DNA from: Idiomarina loihiensis L2TR
GTDB lineage: Bacteria; Pseudomonadota; Gammaproteobacteria; Enterobacterales; Alteromonadaceae
Assembly (NCBI RefSeq): GCF_000008465.1
Contig: NC_006512.1
Coordinates: 480,001 to 512,000 of the forward strand
Reading direction: 5' to 3'
Length of the DNA stretch: 32,000 bases
Of the stretch, positions 13,791-23,415 are shown piece by piece (position 1 is the stretch's first letter; each line of letters starts with the position of its first letter). The notes beneath the pieces were generated by a model. That model did no database searches, was not told the origin of the DNA, and saw nothing but the letters and a program-made list of their open reading frames with translations. The position numbers were made by a program, and so were the translations under genes.

Positions 13791-13816
13791 GTAGCCTGAT
13801 GTTCACATCAGGTGGG
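13791..13816 (+). repeat. Solitary REP unit
   Basis: GTAGCCTGATGTTCACATCAGGTGGG: GTAG head plus an 18-nt hairpin (CCTGATG-TTCA-CATCAGG). Confidence 0.8.
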
Positions 13817-17511: not shown

Positions 17512-18444
17512 ATGAAAGTAGCCGTATTAGGTGCGGCCGGTGGTATCGGCCAGGCATTGTCATTACTTCTGAAAACCCAATTACCAGCAGGTTCAGAATT
17601 ATCGTTGTATGACGTTGCGCCAGTAGTTCCAGGTGTGGCGGTTGACTTAAGTCATATCCCTACCGACGTAAAAGTAACAGGCTTCGGTAAAGACGACTTA
17701 GCATCAGCATTAGTTGGCAGCGACATCGTATTGATTCCTGCCGGCGTACCACGTAAGCCGGGTATGGATCGCTCTGACCTGTTCAACATGAACGCCGGCA
17801 TCGTTAAAAACCTAGTGCAAGGCGTTGCAGACAACTGCCCTAACGCCTGTGTTGGCATCATTACTAACCCAGTAAACACCACGGTTCCAATCGCTGCCGA
17901 AGTCCTGAAAAAAGCAGGCTGCTACGATAAGCGTAAACTGTTCGGTGTTACTACGCTGGACGTTATCCGTTCAGAAGCCTTTGTTGGTGAGTTGCGTGGT
18001 CTGAACCCGGAAAACGTTAATGTACCAGTTATCGGTGGGCATAGCGGCACAACCATTTTGCCATTGCTGTCTCAGGTTGAAGGCGTTGAGTTTACAGAGC
18101 AAGAAATCAAAGACTTAACTCACCGTATCCAGAATGCCGGTACTGAAGTTGTCGAAGCCAAAGCTGGCGGCGGTTCAGCAACCCTTTCTATGGGTCAGGC
18201 AGCAGCACGCTTTGCCTTGTCACTGCTGAAAGGCCTGCAAGGTCAGGACACTATCGAGTGCACCTACGTAGAAGGCCCGGGCGACAATGCTAAGTTCTTC
18301 GCGCAGCCAGTACGCTTAGGCAAAAACGGCGCCGAAGAAATCCTGTCTTACGGCAAGCTAAGTGCATTCGAACAAAAATGCATGGACGAAATGCTAGACG
18401 GCCTGAAAGGCGACATCCAAACTGGCATCGACTTCGCCAGCTAA
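17512..18444 (+). CDS. mdh: Malate dehydrogenase
   Basis: 310 aa. [16 protein letters not shown] Rossmann motif, [24 protein letters not shown]. Collinear with E. coli Mdh. Confidence 0.95.
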
Positions 18445-18650
18445 GCTTTCAGCAATCCGCTCTTGAAAATATTGGGGCGGGCCAGCATTGGCTGGCCATT
18501 GCAGGTTATCTTCCGAAAGACGCCTGCAAGTACGTCCCTGTAAGGCTTGGGCAGCGCCATCCTTGGCGCTGCACACTTTCTCCAGATAACCCACAATGGC
18601 GTATCGCCAATACTGACCACCCCCAATACTTCCACGCTATTTGCTGAAAG
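18445..18650 (-). repeat. Family-A structured repeat, copy A3 (divergent, longer arms); begins at the base after the mdh stop
   Basis: Core GACGCCTGCAAGTACGTCCCTGTAAGGCTTGGGCAGCGCCATCCTTGGCGCTGCACAC. Arms are unrelated in sequence to A1/A2/A4 but self-complementary: CTTTCAGCAA/TTGCTGAAAG, ATTGGGG/CCCCAAT, GGTTATCT/AGATAACC. Confidence 0.85.
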
Positions 18651-18654
18651 TTAT

Positions 18655-18663
18655 GTAGCCTGA
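18655..18663 (+). repeat. Left fragment of a REP unit split by the IS
   Basis: GTAGCCTGA. It continues at 20046 (CGTTCACGTCAGG), reconstituting GTAG plus an 18-nt hairpin. Confidence 0.8.
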
Positions 18664-18748
18664 TGAGATGGTCCCCTCCCTCCTAAGCGGCATCGCAATG
18701 TGCCAATATAGAGGTTCAAGCTTCTATAGAACAGAGTGGAGAGGACCA

Positions 18749-19780
18749 ATGGCTATTGTAAACAGAATTGCCCTGGATTTGGCAAAGGATTTTATTCAGG
18801 TTTTGGCGCTGGATGAAAATGAGCAGGAAGTTTTTAATAAAAAACTGCGCAGCAATAAAGTGTTAGCGAAGCTGGCGACGCTGAGCCGTACGGATGACTG
18901 TGAAGTAGCGGTTGAGTCCTGCGGCATGAGTCATTACTGGCGCCGCGAATGTGAAAAGCTGGGTTATAAAACGGTGGCGTTGCCACCGCGTTTCGTCAAA
19001 GCGTACCTGCAGGGTGAGAAGAACGATGCGAATGACGCCCGGGCAATAGCCGAGGCGGCATCACGACCCAACCGTCAGACGGTCAGGCTGAAAAGCATTG
19101 AGCAGCAGGACTTAGCATTGATGGTCAATCAGCGGGAAGGCTTCGTGCAGACGAGAACGCAGTTCTCGAATAGGTTGCGGGGGCAACTGGCCGAATACGG
19201 CATTCTTTTACCGAAGCGAGTCGGTACGATATTACAGAGAGTACCGGAGGTACTGGAAGACGACAGCAATGCGCTGACGCTTCAGTCACGGGACCTCATC
19301 AACCGGCTCTATCAGATGCTGCGAGCGGTGGATGAAGAAGTTAAAGCGCTGGATAAGCACTTAGCGACACAGGCCGAAAGGAATGAAGACAGTCAGCGGC
19401 TGATGACCCTGCCGGGTATCGGACCGATAACAGCGACCTCGCTGCTGGCACTGATAGGTGATGTGAGTGAATTTAAACGCGGCCGCAACCTGTCGGAATA
19501 CCTGGGACTGGTACCACGGCAAAACAGCAGTGGCGGTAAAGACCGTTTAGGCGGTATTACCAAAAAAGGGAACACCAAACTCAGGACACTGCTGGTGCAT
19601 GGCGCCCGCTCGGCACTGCGGGTGGCACAACAGCGCCACGACAGGCTGAGCCTCTGGGCACAGGATGTCGCTAAACGCAGAGGCAACAACGTTGCAGCGG
19701 TGGCACTGGCTAACAAGCACGCCCGGATAATCTGGGCGATGTTAAAGAATAAAGAAGATTACCGGATGACTGCTGCTTAA
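18749..19780 (+). CDS. IS110-family (DEDD/RuvC-like + Tnp domain) transposase/recombinase
   Basis: Start at MAIVNRIALDLAKDF, with a GGAGAGG SD 5 nt upstream. The ORF-track start at 18668 reads through the terminal IR and is unlikely. Motifs: ALDLAK, VESCGMSHYW, KNDANDARAIAEA, LPGIGPITATSLLALIGD, VPRQNSSGGKDRLGGITKKGN. Confidence 0.9.
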   Translation: MAIVNRIALDLAKDFIQVLALDENEQEVFNKKLRSNKVLAKLATLSRTDDCEVAVESCGMSHYWRRECEKLGYKTVALPPRFVKAYLQGEKNDANDARAIAEAASRPNRQTVRLKSIEQQDLALMVNQREGFVQTRTQFSNRLRGQLAEYGILLPKRVGTILQRVPEVLEDDSNALTLQSRDLINRLYQMLRAVDEEVKALDKHLATQAERNEDSQRLMTLPGIGPITATSLLALIGDVSEFKRGRNLSEYLGLVPRQNSSGGKDRLGGITKKGNTKLRTLLVHGARSALRVAQQRHDRLSLWAQDVAKRRGNNVAAVALANKHARIIWAMLKNKEDYRMTAA

Positions 19781-20045
19781 CAGCATTCAGTAAAAGAGCA
19801 CAGCGAAGGTTCATTCCTTCCGGGAGTTGCAAACGTCAACAGGATGGTAAAATAGGGTAAACCGACGACAACTGAGACTGTTGAACGTCCGTACATAAAG
19901 TACGTTAGCCTGATAAGCCAGTTGTCGTGCGGAGTTCATCCAGGCCAGGTGCGCAAAGCGCGCACCATAAACAGGCCGTATATATGCGAGCGCCCCGACA
20001 TTTACCACGAGTTGCCGTTGCAAAACGGGAGGGGACCATATATGA
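19781..20045 (+). ncRNA. Candidate bridge/seek guide RNA region in the IS 3' non-coding end (target-binding module at 19862-19932)
   Basis: Stem 19862-19874/19919-19932 encloses an internal loop and hairpin 19890-19904. Loop side 1, TGAACGTC (19882-19889), is the reverse complement of the right flank GACGTTCA (20044-20051). Loop side 2, TAGCCTGAT (19906-19914), is identical to the left flank (18656-18664). Transcript ends and the donor-binding module are not resolved. Confidence 0.5.
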
Positions 20046-20046
20046 C
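20018..20046 (+). promoter_or_regulatory. Outward-facing sigma70-like promoter at the IS right end; improved if the IS ends are joined
   Basis: TTGCAA (20018-20023), 17-nt spacer, TATGAC (20041-20046). Joining the right end to the first IS base (T at 18664) would give TATGAT. Confidence 0.3.
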
Positions 20047-20100
20047 GTTCACGTCAGGAGTTATCTTTGGACTTTCCACCTGATGTGAATATCAGGCTAC
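20046..20100. repeat. Right fragment of the split REP plus its intact inverted partner REP (REP doublet)
   Basis: CGTTCACGTCAGG (20046-20058) ... CACCTGATGTGAATATCAGGCTAC (20077-20100), which is the reverse complement of GTAGCCTGATATTCACATCAGGTG. Confidence 0.8.
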
Positions 20101-20111
20101 GAAAATGGTTG

Positions 20112-20275
20112 GAGGGCAGGTTGCTCACTTGTGAGCGTTACGAGTGTTGATAGCTTCTGTAGCGGAGTGTCGAAGGCCAGGGATGGCCTTCGTCAAGCCC
20201 TCATGGATGAGCTCGTAGCGTCTCCGCTACAGAAGCTATCAATGCTCAAGCGAAACAAGTGAGCAATCTGCCCTC
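20112..20275 (+). repeat. Family-C structured repeat, copy C2
   Basis: Same architecture as C1, with compensatory arm changes: GGTTGCTCACTT/AAGTGAGCAATC and GATAGCTTCTGTAGCGGAG/CTCCGCTACAGAAGCTATC. Hairpin loop is AGGGAT. Confidence 0.9.
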
Positions 20276-20276
20276 T

Positions 20277-20337
20277 CCCAAGCCCTACAGGGAAGTACTT
20301 GGGGGCGTCCTCCGAAACAGAACCCGCTCCCCCAAGG
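20277..20337 (+). repeat. Partial family-A copy (core 3' half + one arm), opposite orientation to A1-A5, fused to the end of C2
   Basis: CCCAAGCCCTACAGGGAAGTACTTGGGGGCGTCCTCC... equals the reverse complement of the A core from GGGCTTGGG leftwards. Ends 7 nt before the ispB stop. Confidence 0.8.

Positions 20338-22199: not shown

Positions 22200-23415
<1,216 letters not shown>

What the first reader, a model, noticed from the sequence alone, without database searches (positions are those of the whole stretch)
19862..19932. Candidate bridge/seek guide RNA: two loop segments match the two halves of the interrupted REP target
Seen in the sequence: in the 266-nt non-coding 3' end of the IS, CCGACGACAACTG (19862-19874) pairs with CAGTTGTCGTGCGG (19919-19932). 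That is 10 contiguous bp, a 1-nt bulge, then 3 bp. This stem encloses an internal loop with a distal hairpin CGTAC-ATAAA-GTACG (19890-19904).

Immediately 5' of that hairpin lies TGAACGTC (19882-19889), the exact reverse complement of GACGTTCA (20044-20051, the right junction). One nt 3' of the hairpin lies TAGCCTGAT (19906-19914), identical to the left flank at 18656-18664. The two segments could therefore pair with opposite strands of the two target halves. Both cover the GA found at both junctions, so the inferred 14-nt target is TAGCCT-GA-CGTTCA.

Established knowledge: IS110-family recombinases use an element-encoded bispecific RNA (the IS621 bridge RNA; the seekRNA of IS1111/IS110 types). 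Its target loop carries two guides that both include the core. In the IS1111 subgroup the RNA lies downstream of the recombinase gene.

Inference: this is that RNA's target-binding module, programmed for this organism's REP.

I could not locate a convincing donor-binding module. The only hit is a 7-nt ATATATG (19980-19986) matching the right IS tip (20038-20044). A near-cognate site (13/14) exists at the REP at 23394-23415, read on the minus strand: TAGCCTGACGTTTA.
Basis: partly seen in the sequence, partly recalled or inferred. Interest (0 to 1): 0.85.

Follow-up and report, generated by a model that had tools for sequence, protein, structure and literature searches.

The report
Guide RNA of a REP-targeting insertion sequence
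The non-coding tail of this 1.38-kb IS1111-type insertion sequence encodes a bridge/seek guide RNA whose loops spell out both its REP insertion site and the element's own ends; this is a real but ordinary new example of a mechanism described in 2024.

Summary
Window 18661-20042 is an IS1111-type element: a DEDD transposase gene at 18749-19780, 13-bp subterminal inverted repeats, and a long 3' non-coding region. It sits in a REP at GTAGCC^TGACGTTCA.

The stem 19862-74/19919-32 encloses two guides. TGAACGTC (19882-89) is the reverse complement of the right flank. TAGCCTGAT (19906-14) is identical to the left flank plus core.

About 25 further insertions of the same or 78-92% nt-identical elements (Idiomarina genomes, metagenomes) all lie in REP-type sites. 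Their guides co-vary with their flanks, for example TAGCTTG, TAACTTG and TAGGTCG on the left, and CGTTTA, CATTCA and GCGCCTT on the right. [quoted passage not shown] Cognate guide/flank matching beat all 5000 permutations.

Two corrections. The shared core is TG, not GA. A donor-binding module does exist: TTCATC (19935-40) pairs with the left end, and ATATATG (19980-86) matches the right end plus core. Both flank a second hairpin and co-vary with the ends.

This is a new member of a known kind. No expression or activity data exist.

The parts
18655..18662 (+). Left half of the interrupted REP target: GTAGCC plus core TG (18661-62).
   Evidence: All left junctions of the near relatives read GTAGCC-TG, or GTAGCT-TG, GTAACT-TG, GTAGGT-CG in variants. 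Intact REPs in the window read GTAGCCTGACGTT...
18661..20042 (+). IS1111-type insertion sequence, 1382 bp, counting the core once at the left as in the Partridge-Hall/Siddiquee convention.
   Evidence: blastn finds full-length copies at 78-92% identity in Idiomarina genomes and metagenomes. Joining the flanks restores a REP with no duplication.
18663..18680 (+). Left end: 5-nt extension ATGAG (18663-67) plus left subterminal inverted repeat ATGGTCCCCTCCC (18668-80).
   Evidence: A 13/13 inverted repeat with 20027-39. The same layout is present in most of the distant relatives whose two ends could be located.
18749..19780 (+). DEDD transposase/recombinase gene (343 aa).
   Evidence: PF01548 (E 8e-20) and PF02371 (E 1.8e-26). 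NF033542 'IS110 family RNA-guided transposase', 327 bits. D10, E56, D93, D96 and the GL.P....SG motif are invariant in the alignment.
19842..20008 (+). Conserved core of the guide RNA ('long' form, 167 nt): closing stems 19845-51/20001-07 and 19855-57/19994-96 enclose a multi-branch loop.
   Evidence: Model R1 hits the window once, here, at 207 bits. R1 finds the RNA downstream of tnp in 65 of 81 distant loci, plus one hit upstream in L028. 30 of 36 pairs show compensatory changes.
19862..19932 (+). Target-binding arm: stem 19862-74/19919-32 enclosing an internal loop with the distal hairpin 19890-19904.
   Evidence: 4 stem pairs and 3 hairpin pairs show compensatory changes in near relatives; 98.9% of cells are paired against about 35% when partners are slid.
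19882..19889 (+). 5' target guide TGAACGTC. It pairs with the top strand of G(core)+ACGTTCA (20044-51).
   Evidence: It co-varies with the right flank: TAAACGTC/ACGTTTA (L001), GAATGTC/ACATTCA (L009), GGAACGTC/ACGTTCC (L025), AAGGCGC/GCGCCTT (L015-24). Permutation test 0/5000.
19906..19914 (+). 3' target guide TAGCC-TG-AT. It has the same sense as left flank + core, so it pairs with the bottom strand. The final AT matches the first bases of the left end.
   Evidence: It co-varies with the left flank: TAGCTTG, TAACTTG, TAGGTCG. Permutation test 0/5000.
19935..19940 (+). 5' donor guide TTCATC. It pairs with the top strand of G(core)+ATGAG of the left end (one U-G wobble).
   Evidence: Across relatives the position opposite the 4th base of the left extension is always complementary: G-C 56, A-T 18, no exception. 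ATGGT/ACCAT and ATGGA/TCCAT cases also occur.
19943..19977 (+). Second hairpin (GGCC-A-GGTGCGC...GCGCACC-ATAAACA-GGCC) that separates the two donor guides.
   Evidence: The helices are conserved, with compensatory changes in 7 of 9 pairs in distant relatives.
19980..19986 (+). 3' donor guide ATATA-TG. It has the same sense as the right-end extension + core.
   Evidence: It changes to ATATACG together with the right tip, the left-flank core and the 3' target guide in L015/18/24. The first core base is identical in both guides and both junctions: CCCC 43, TTTT 17, and G in the one element that carries it.
20018..20023 (+). -35 hexamer TTGCAA of a promoter completed only when the ends are joined (TTGCAA-17-TATGAT across the circle junction).
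   Evidence: My scan of the joined ends finds it. No promoter-like site is found in the integrated element. It is conserved in 46 of 54 distant relatives and absent (0 of 54) at their integrated right junctions.
20027..20042 (+). Right subterminal inverted repeat GGGAGGGGACCAT (20027-39) plus 3-nt extension ATA (20040-42).
20043..20058 (+). Right half of the interrupted REP: core TG (20043-44) plus ACGTTCACGTCAGG.

Best explanation
**What it is.** Window 19842-20008, possibly extended by an outer stem to about 19826-20026, encodes the bispecific guide RNA of an IS1111-type insertion sequence. This RNA is called a bridge RNA or, in its long form, a seekRNA. It is transcribed on the same strand as, and downstream of, the DEDD recombinase gene.

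**Target arm (19862-19932).** It presents two guides in an internal loop. TGAACGTC pairs with the top strand of the right target half (G-ACGTTCA). TAGCCTG pairs with the bottom strand of the left half plus the core TG. Together they specify the REP site GTAGCC-TG-ACGTTCA.

**Donor guides.** Two further single-stranded segments sit in the multi-branch loop on either side of a second hairpin. TTCATC (19935-40) recognises the left end, and ATATATG (19980-86) recognises the right end plus the same core.

**Reaction (inferred).** The recombinase bound to this RNA would synapse the circularised element with a REP and exchange strands at the TG core. It would insert without duplication and in one orientation. 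The same four guides would recognise the two junctions for excision. Joining the ends builds a promoter (TTGCAA-17-TATGAT) that would drive recombinase and RNA synthesis from the circle.

**Shown versus inferred.** Shown here: the sequence matches, structure covariation, guide-target and guide-end covariation, and site-specific insertion of many copies. Inferred from published IS1111/IS110 work: that the RNA is made, binds the protein and directs recombination.
For: **Element identity.**
- DEDD and PF02371 domains; NF033542 'RNA-guided transposase'.
- 13-bp subterminal repeats with 7-nt left and 3-nt right extensions.
- The long non-coding region is downstream of tnp.

**Site specificity.**
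- About 25 further insertions of the same or 78-92% nt-identical elements lie in different genomic contexts, all at the same position of REP-type sequences.
- Joining the window's flanks restores a REP identical in form to intact copies in the window.

**Guide-target covariation.**
- Near relatives match 6-7 of 7 positions on the left and 6-8 of 8 on the right, each to its own flank.
- Mean longest common substring between guide and flank: 3' guide 5.37 cognate vs 2.97 shuffled; 5' guide 5.67 cognate vs 3.36 shuffled. Both 0/5000, and this holds in the near and distant sets separately.

**Guide-donor covariation.**
- The first core base is identical in both guides and both junctions (CCCC 43, TTTT 17).
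- Left-end guide against left extension: G-C 56, A-T 18, no exceptions.

**Structure.**
- z = -3.9.
- 8 of 36 pairs are compensatory among near relatives and 30 of 36 among distant ones.
- The model finds the RNA downstream of tnp in 65 of 81 distant loci, plus one hit upstream in L028.

**Junction promoter.**

**Published precedent.**
- IS1111 seekRNAs lie in the 3' non-coding region, with the top-strand match 5' of the bottom-strand match. They occur as an 82-96-nt short form and a 148-172-nt long form. ISPa11 targets a REP (PMC11187229; PMC13604230).
- IS1111 bridge RNAs often carry the donor-binding bases in a multi-loop (PMC11208160).
Against: - There are no expression, binding or transposition data for this element.
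- Rfam 15 has no family that matches, so no independent model confirms the assignment.
- The left-end guide pairs over only 6 nt, one of them a wobble. It is invariant among near relatives, so its support comes from distant relatives aligned with a model fitted to my structure.
- For ISEc11 the short seekRNA (target arm only) sufficed for transposition (PMC11187229), so the need for the donor segments is not established in IS1111-type elements.
- Some copies have 1-2 mismatches between guide and flank (L002, L003, L016-19, L024). L004 has TG at the left junction and CG at the right.
Confidence: 0.9

Rival explanations
1. Only the target arm is an RNA guide (a short seekRNA). The element's ends would be recognised by the protein through the subterminal inverted repeats. 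The similarity of 19935-40 and 19980-86 to the ends would then be a by-product, for example conserved protein-binding or processing sequence.
For: - For ISEc11 the 82-nt short seekRNA supported transposition better than the long form (42% vs 15%; PMC11187229).
- The donor segments are short (6-7 nt) and invariant among the near relatives.
Against: - The right-end segment changes T to C exactly when the right tip and the core change (L015/18/24).
- The first core base agrees between both guides and both junctions in 60 of the 68 elements where all four could be read.
- The left-end segment is complementary to the variable 4th base of the left extension in 74 of 74 cases.
- Durrant et al. describe donor-binding bases in a multi-loop for many IS1111 elements.
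Confidence: 0.07
2. The stem-loops are only a structured 3' UTR or terminator of the transposase gene. The matches to the flanks would be REP-derived sequence picked up by the element.
For: - The region is highly structured.
- REPs are palindromic and abundant in this genome.
Against: - No U-tract terminator is found here.
- The two segments are the two target halves in permuted order and on opposite strands, not a REP copy.
- They co-vary with the flanks in elements that use unrelated targets.
- The joint match is about 1 in 5000 by chance.
Confidence: 0.02

Closest known systems
ISPa11 and its seekRNA (IS1111 family, Pseudomonas aeruginosa; Siddiquee et al. 2024, PMC11187229)
   Same: - Both are IS1111-type elements with subterminal inverted repeats and a 3' non-coding RNA.
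- Both target a REP, with the top-strand match 5' of the bottom-strand match.
- ISPa11 has a short (96 nt) and a long (172 nt) form, comparable with the 71-nt arm and 167-nt core here.
- The ISPa11 target GTAGGG*CG.. is the target of several distant loci that my model detects (L031, L032, L045, L095). That places ISPa11-like elements in the same RNA family.
   Different: - The recombinase is only about 45-50% identical to that group.
- The REP differs (GTAGCC-TG-ACGTTCA, Idiomarina) and the core is TG rather than CG.
- The left extension is ATGAG rather than ATGGG.
- The RNA of this element has not been observed experimentally.
IS621 bridge RNA (IS110 group; Durrant et al. 2024, PMC11208160; Hiraizumi et al. 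2024, PMC11208158)
   Same: - One RNA carries four guides that read both strands of target and donor around a shared 2-nt core.
- The recombinase is a DEDD/RuvC plus Tnp-domain enzyme.
- The target is a REP.
- A promoter is reconstituted at the circle junction.
   Different: - In IS621 the RNA lies upstream of the gene and the order of the guides is reversed. Its donor guides sit in a simple internal loop, and it has 2-3-bp rather than 13-bp subterminal repeats.
- Here the donor guides lie in a multi-branch loop, as Durrant et al. noted for many IS1111 elements.
ISEc11 / ISXne4 natural reprogramming (PMC11187229)
   Same: Close relatives keep the RNA stems but change the loop bases and insert at correspondingly different sequences.
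   Different: - Here the series is finer. There are at least six 5'-guide variants and four 3'-guide variants within 78-97% identical elements.
- These variants track micro-variants of REPs in Idiomarina.

Membership tests
IS1111 subgroup of the IS110 family (element) | DEDD (RuvC-like) N-terminal domain plus a PF02371 C-terminal domain with the GL-P----S/TG motif | tested here: met
   - PF01548 and PF02371; NF033542 at 327 bits against a cut-off of 140.
- D10, E56, D93, D96 and G253-L-x-P256-x4-S261-G262 are invariant.
IS1111 subgroup of the IS110 family (element) | Subterminal inverted repeats of 7-17 bp, set in from the ends (7 nt at the left, 3 nt at the right) | tested here: met
   ATGGTCCCCTCCC (18668-80) pairs with GGGAGGGGACCAT (20027-39), 13 of 13. 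The left extension is TGATGAG and the right extension is ATA.
IS1111 subgroup of the IS110 family (element) | The longer non-coding region lies downstream of the transposase gene | tested here: met
   262 nt downstream (19781-20042) against 88 nt upstream (18661-18748).
IS1111 subgroup of the IS110 family (element) | Site- and orientation-specific insertion without target duplication | tested here: met
   All copies lie at the same REP position and in the same orientation. The joined flanks equal an intact REP.
IS1111 subgroup of the IS110 family (element) | A circular intermediate with a promoter formed at the junction | tested here: inconclusive
   At sequence level only. TTGCAA-17-TATGAT exists only in the joined ends and is conserved in 46 of 54 relatives. 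No circle was observed.
Bridge RNA / seekRNA | A structured non-coding RNA in the long non-coding end, on the sense strand of the recombinase gene | tested here: met
   Fold z = -3.9. Compensatory changes in 8 of 36 pairs (near relatives) and 30 of 36 (distant). 65 of the 66 model hits lie on the + strand downstream of tnp; the L028 hit lies upstream.
Bridge RNA / seekRNA | A loop with two guides complementary to opposite strands of the two target halves, overlapping at the core. [quoted passage not shown] | tested here: met
   19882-89 is the reverse complement of 20044-51. 19906-12 equals 18656-62. The order is as published.
Bridge RNA / seekRNA | Guides co-vary with the target among relatives | tested here: met
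   0/5000 permutations for each guide, in the near and distant sets. Explicit variant table.
Bridge RNA / seekRNA | A second pair of guides matches the element's own ends (donor) and shares the core | tested here: met
   Core covariation across both guides and both junctions. Left-end guide complementary in 74 of 74 cases. ATATATG changes to ATATACG together with the right tip.
Bridge RNA / seekRNA | The RNA is expressed, binds the recombinase and is required for transposition; it can be reprogrammed | not testable with these tools
Bridge RNA / seekRNA | Match to a published covariance model | not testable with these tools
   Rfam 15 gave no relevant hit even at E <= 10. The models of Durrant et al. 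are not in the library.

The most novel reading that the evidence does not exclude
**Observation in the distant (ISPa11-like) relatives.** The second core position is A at nearly every left junction (CA-ATGGG). At the right junction it is usually G (a few A, one T), and the right-end guide carries G (T in L092), while the 3' target guide carries G or A.

**Proposed reading.**
- Donor and target cores would differ (YA vs YG). Recognition would tolerate this through G-U/G-T wobble.
- The A appears to be kept because it completes the -10 hexamer TACAAT of the junction promoter.
- IS1111-type recombination would then not require identical 2-nt cores. Strand exchange may rely on a single shared base, a mechanistic departure from IS621.
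- The AT tail of the 3' target guide would act as a built-in handshake with the left end.
Probability: 0.3. Interest if true: 0.5.

Novelty: new member of a known kind. Interest (0 to 1): 0.3.

Why it matters
- It adds a cleanly annotated IS1111-type bridge/seek RNA, with all four guides, the core, the ends and the junction promoter placed to the base.
- It adds a natural reprogramming series in one genus. Small guide changes track REP micro-variants, which gives ready-made, evolution-tested guide/target pairs for an IS1111-type system.
- It supplies comparative evidence that the long form of IS1111 RNAs carries donor-binding guides in a multi-branch loop. The seekRNA study left this point open.
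- It does not reveal a new kind of system.

Tried and rejected
- **Rfam 15 at E <= 10 over 18400-20300.** Only chance hits outside the RNA (SorY/Ysr224-like matches on the mdh terminator and REP region). There is no bridge-RNA family in the library.
- **GUUC/GAGC stem.** RNAalifold on the full non-coding region proposed this stem (19934-37/19988-91) and a small hairpin inside the ATATATG segment. I did not adopt them. They are invariant among near relatives, and they would bury segments that co-vary with the ends.
- **GAAGG/CCTTC hairpin.** I considered pairing of the right inverted repeat with 19808-20 (minimum-free-energy fold). The local hairpin GAAGG/CCTTC (19805-09/19816-20), whose loop varies, explains that region at least as well. 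Left open.
Rejected, because the L016-type junctions share TG only.
- **Internal promoter for the RNA in the integrated copy.** None was found.
- **First scripts.** My first inverted-repeat script timed out and my first regular-expression parsers returned nothing. They were rewritten.
- **Orthologous empty site.** Intact REPs in the window served instead.

Full report
**1. The observation**

Every string and coordinate in the finding is exact.
- The stem halves lie at 19862-74 and 19919-32, and the hairpin at 19890-904.
- TGAACGTC (19882-89) is the reverse complement of 20044-51.
- TAGCCTGAT (19906-14) is identical to 18656-64.

The 265-nt region after the stop codon folds better than any of 200 shuffles (z = -3.9). 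The minimum-free-energy fold contains the proposed stem.

I shuffled the non-coding region 5000 times. A 9-nt match to the left junction arose 25 times, an 8-nt reverse-complement match to the right junction arose 203 times, and both arose together once.

**2. The element**

- The ORF is a 343-aa DEDD recombinase starting at 18749. The 370-aa ORF from 18668 merely starts inside the inverted repeat.
- It carries PF01548 and PF02371 and scores 327 bits on NF033542, 'IS110 family RNA-guided transposase'.
- The catalytic D10, E56, D93 and D96 and the GL.P....SG motif are invariant among homologues.
- ATGGTCCCCTCCC (18668-80) and GGGAGGGGACCAT (20027-39) form a perfect 13-bp subterminal inverted repeat.
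- The long non-coding region is downstream of the gene.

These are the defining features of the IS1111 subgroup (PMC11187229; PMC11208160).

**3. Other copies**

- A scan of reference genomes found 13 loci with the same element (about 90% nt identity) in Idiomarina abyssalis, I. zobellii and I. piscisalsi.
- Look-ups of the 81-88% identical proteins gave 13 more loci, from Idiomarina sp. CP080268 and from metagenomes.
- Every copy whose junction could be read lies at the same position and in the same orientation in a REP-type palindrome, and each has different genes around it.
- Joining the window's flanks gives GTAGCCTGACGTTCACGTCAGG. This has the same form as intact REPs elsewhere in the window, for example at 23414 (minus strand), 5498 and 23361.

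Insertion is therefore site-specific and makes no duplication.

**4. The target guides co-vary with the flanks**

Within these near relatives the 3' guide and the left flank change together:

| Loci | 3' guide and left flank |
|---|---|
| window | TAGCCTG |
| L016 | TAGCTTG |
| L017, L019, L021, L023 | TAACTTG |
| L015, L018, L024 | TAGGTCG |

The 5' guide tracks the right flank:

| Locus | 5' guide | Right flank |
|---|---|---|
| window | TGAACGTC | G-ACGTTCA |
| L001 | TAAACGTC | ACGTTTA |
| L009 | GAATGTC | ACATTCA |
| L025 | GGAACGTC | ACGTTCC |
| L004 | ATAGCCTC | ATGCTAT (7/8) |
| L015-24 | AAGGCGC | GCGCCTT |

A few copies carry one or two mismatches (L002, L003, L014, L020, L022). That fits tolerance for near-cognate REPs.

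**5. A wider family**

A metagenome scan returned 80 loci whose recombinases are 42-50% identical.

I built a covariance model on 13 distinct near-relative RNAs (window 19842-20008; 36 base pairs, 8 with compensatory changes, 98.9% of cells paired against about 35% when partners are slid). Results:
- It hit 66 of 81 loci, all on the + strand. In 65 the hit lies just downstream of the recombinase gene; in L028 it lies upstream.
- It hit the window exactly once, at 207 bits.
- On that alignment 30 of 36 pairs show compensatory changes. The caveat is that the alignment is fitted to the model.

I located ends by their inverted repeats and tabulated the junctions. Cognate guide/flank pairs share much longer common substrings than shuffled pairs:
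- 3' guide against left flank: 5.37 vs 2.97.
- 5' guide against right flank: 5.67 vs 3.36.
- Both gave 0/5000 permutations, and the same holds for the near and distant sets separately.

Several of these loci (L031, L032, L045, L095) use GTAGGG*CG. That is the published ISPa11 target, so the experimentally validated ISPa11 seekRNA very likely belongs to this RNA family.

**6. The core**

In the window the bases TGA are shared by both junctions, which left the core ambiguous.
- L016-type copies read GCT-TG-ATGAG on the left and ATATA-TG-CGCC on the right. Only TG is shared.
- In L015, L018 and L024 it is CG.

So the core is TG (18661-62 and 20043-44). The A at 18663 belongs to the left end, and the A at 20045 belongs to the target.

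The 3' guide is therefore TAGCC + TG + AT. Its last two bases match the left end rather than the target. That is reminiscent of the handshake guides of IS621 (PMC11208158), but this is an inference.

**7. The donor module**

Comparative data place it on either side of the second hairpin (19943-77), in the multi-branch loop closed by 19855-57/19994-96 and 19845-51/20001-07.

(a) *Right-end guide.* ATATATG (19980-86) has the same sense as the right extension plus core.
- It becomes ATATACG in exactly those elements whose right tip, left-flank core and 3' target guide also carry C.
- Among elements where both guides and both junctions could be read, the first core base is C in all four in 43 and T in all four in 17, with eight exceptions. 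It is G in the right-end guide and the left junction of the one element that uses G (L050).

(b) *Left-end guide.* TTCATC (19935-40) can pair with G-ATGAG (core G plus left extension) with one U-G wobble.
- Distant relatives have CCCAT[T/C] opposite ATGGG.
- L079 has CTCATC opposite ATGAG.
- ACCAT occurs opposite ATGGT, and TCCAT opposite ATGGA.
- The base opposite the variable 4th position is complementary in 74 of 74 cases.

This arrangement matches the remark of Durrant et al. that many IS1111 bridge RNAs hold donor-binding bases in a multi-loop.

**8. Expression**

- No sigma-70-like promoter is found in the integrated element.
- Joining the ends creates TTGCAA-17-TATGAT, with the -35 hexamer at 20018-23 and the -10 hexamer spanning the junction.
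- The equivalent site (mostly TTGCAA-17-TACAAT) is present in 46 of 54 distant relatives and in none of their integrated right junctions.

This is the junction-promoter logic described for ISEc11, IS621 and ISPpu10. The RNA would be processed from the long transcript that also encodes the recombinase. That step is inferred from the literature.

**9. Comparison and verdict**

- The thing works like, and passes every sequence-level membership test for, an IS1111-type bridge/seek RNA. Expression, protein binding and activity could not be tested.
- The closest characterised relative is ISPa11, which is also REP-targeting.
- It differs from IS621 in RNA position, guide order, long subterminal repeats and the multi-branch donor site. 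All of these differences are already described for the IS1111 group.
- It is therefore a new member of a known kind.
- Interest is modest. The fine-grained natural reprogramming series and the comparative evidence for RNA-encoded donor recognition in an IS1111 clade are useful, but not surprising to a specialist.

Noticed in passing
L029-L107 (distant relatives), junction table: In the 42-50% identical relatives the second core position is A at nearly every left junction (e.g. AAG-CA-ATGGG). At the right junction it is mostly G, and the right-end guide reads G (T in L092). The A completes the -10 hexamer TACAAT of the junction promoter. How unequal cores are reconciled during strand exchange is unexplained.
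   Followed up: partly
L004 (Idiomarina piscisalsi), junctions: This copy has TG at the left junction but CG at the right (..CCATATACGATGCTAT), while its RNA carries TG in both guides. It may be a core mismatch fixed after insertion into a CG-core REP, or a later mutation.
   Followed up: no
L028:798-962: The best distant RNA hit (54 bits) and a right end lie about 240 nt upstream of the recombinase match (1201-2178), whose own 3' region is cut off by the contig end. This is probably two adjacent copies, but an upstream-RNA variant is not excluded.
   Followed up: no
L050, L060, L061, L095 (alignment): These relatives carry a much longer insertion in place of the short distal hairpin of the target loop. 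L050 uses a G as first core base (CACAG-GA-ATGGA; right-end guide ATATAGG).
   Followed up: no
window 20076-20101 (minus strand) and 18655-62 + 20043-58: The interrupted REP forms an inverted pair with a second REP about 20 nt downstream (GTAGCCTGATATTCACATCAGG on the minus strand), a REPIN/BIME-like doublet. The second REP is itself a 12/14 match to the target. Other 13/14 sites lie at 13792 (+), 23361 (+) and 23401-14 (-).
   Followed up: partly
window 18485-18581: Weak Rfam hits (SorY 24 bits, Ysr224 19 bits, both far below their gathering scores) fall on two hairpins after mdh (17512-18444). They are most likely the mdh terminator region, not these sRNAs.
   Followed up: no
window 19805-19820: A small hairpin, GAAGG-loop-CCTTC, sits just after the recombinase stop codon. 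It is conserved in all near relatives while its loop varies. In the minimum-free-energy fold the same bases instead pair with the right inverted repeat. Its role (processing site? 5' boundary of the long RNA?) is unknown.
   Followed up: no
window 18749-19780 (protein): The recombinase gives a sub-threshold NCBIfam hit to the TIGR-Tas RNA-guided endonuclease model (NF052498, 39 bits against a cut-off of 100).
   Followed up: no
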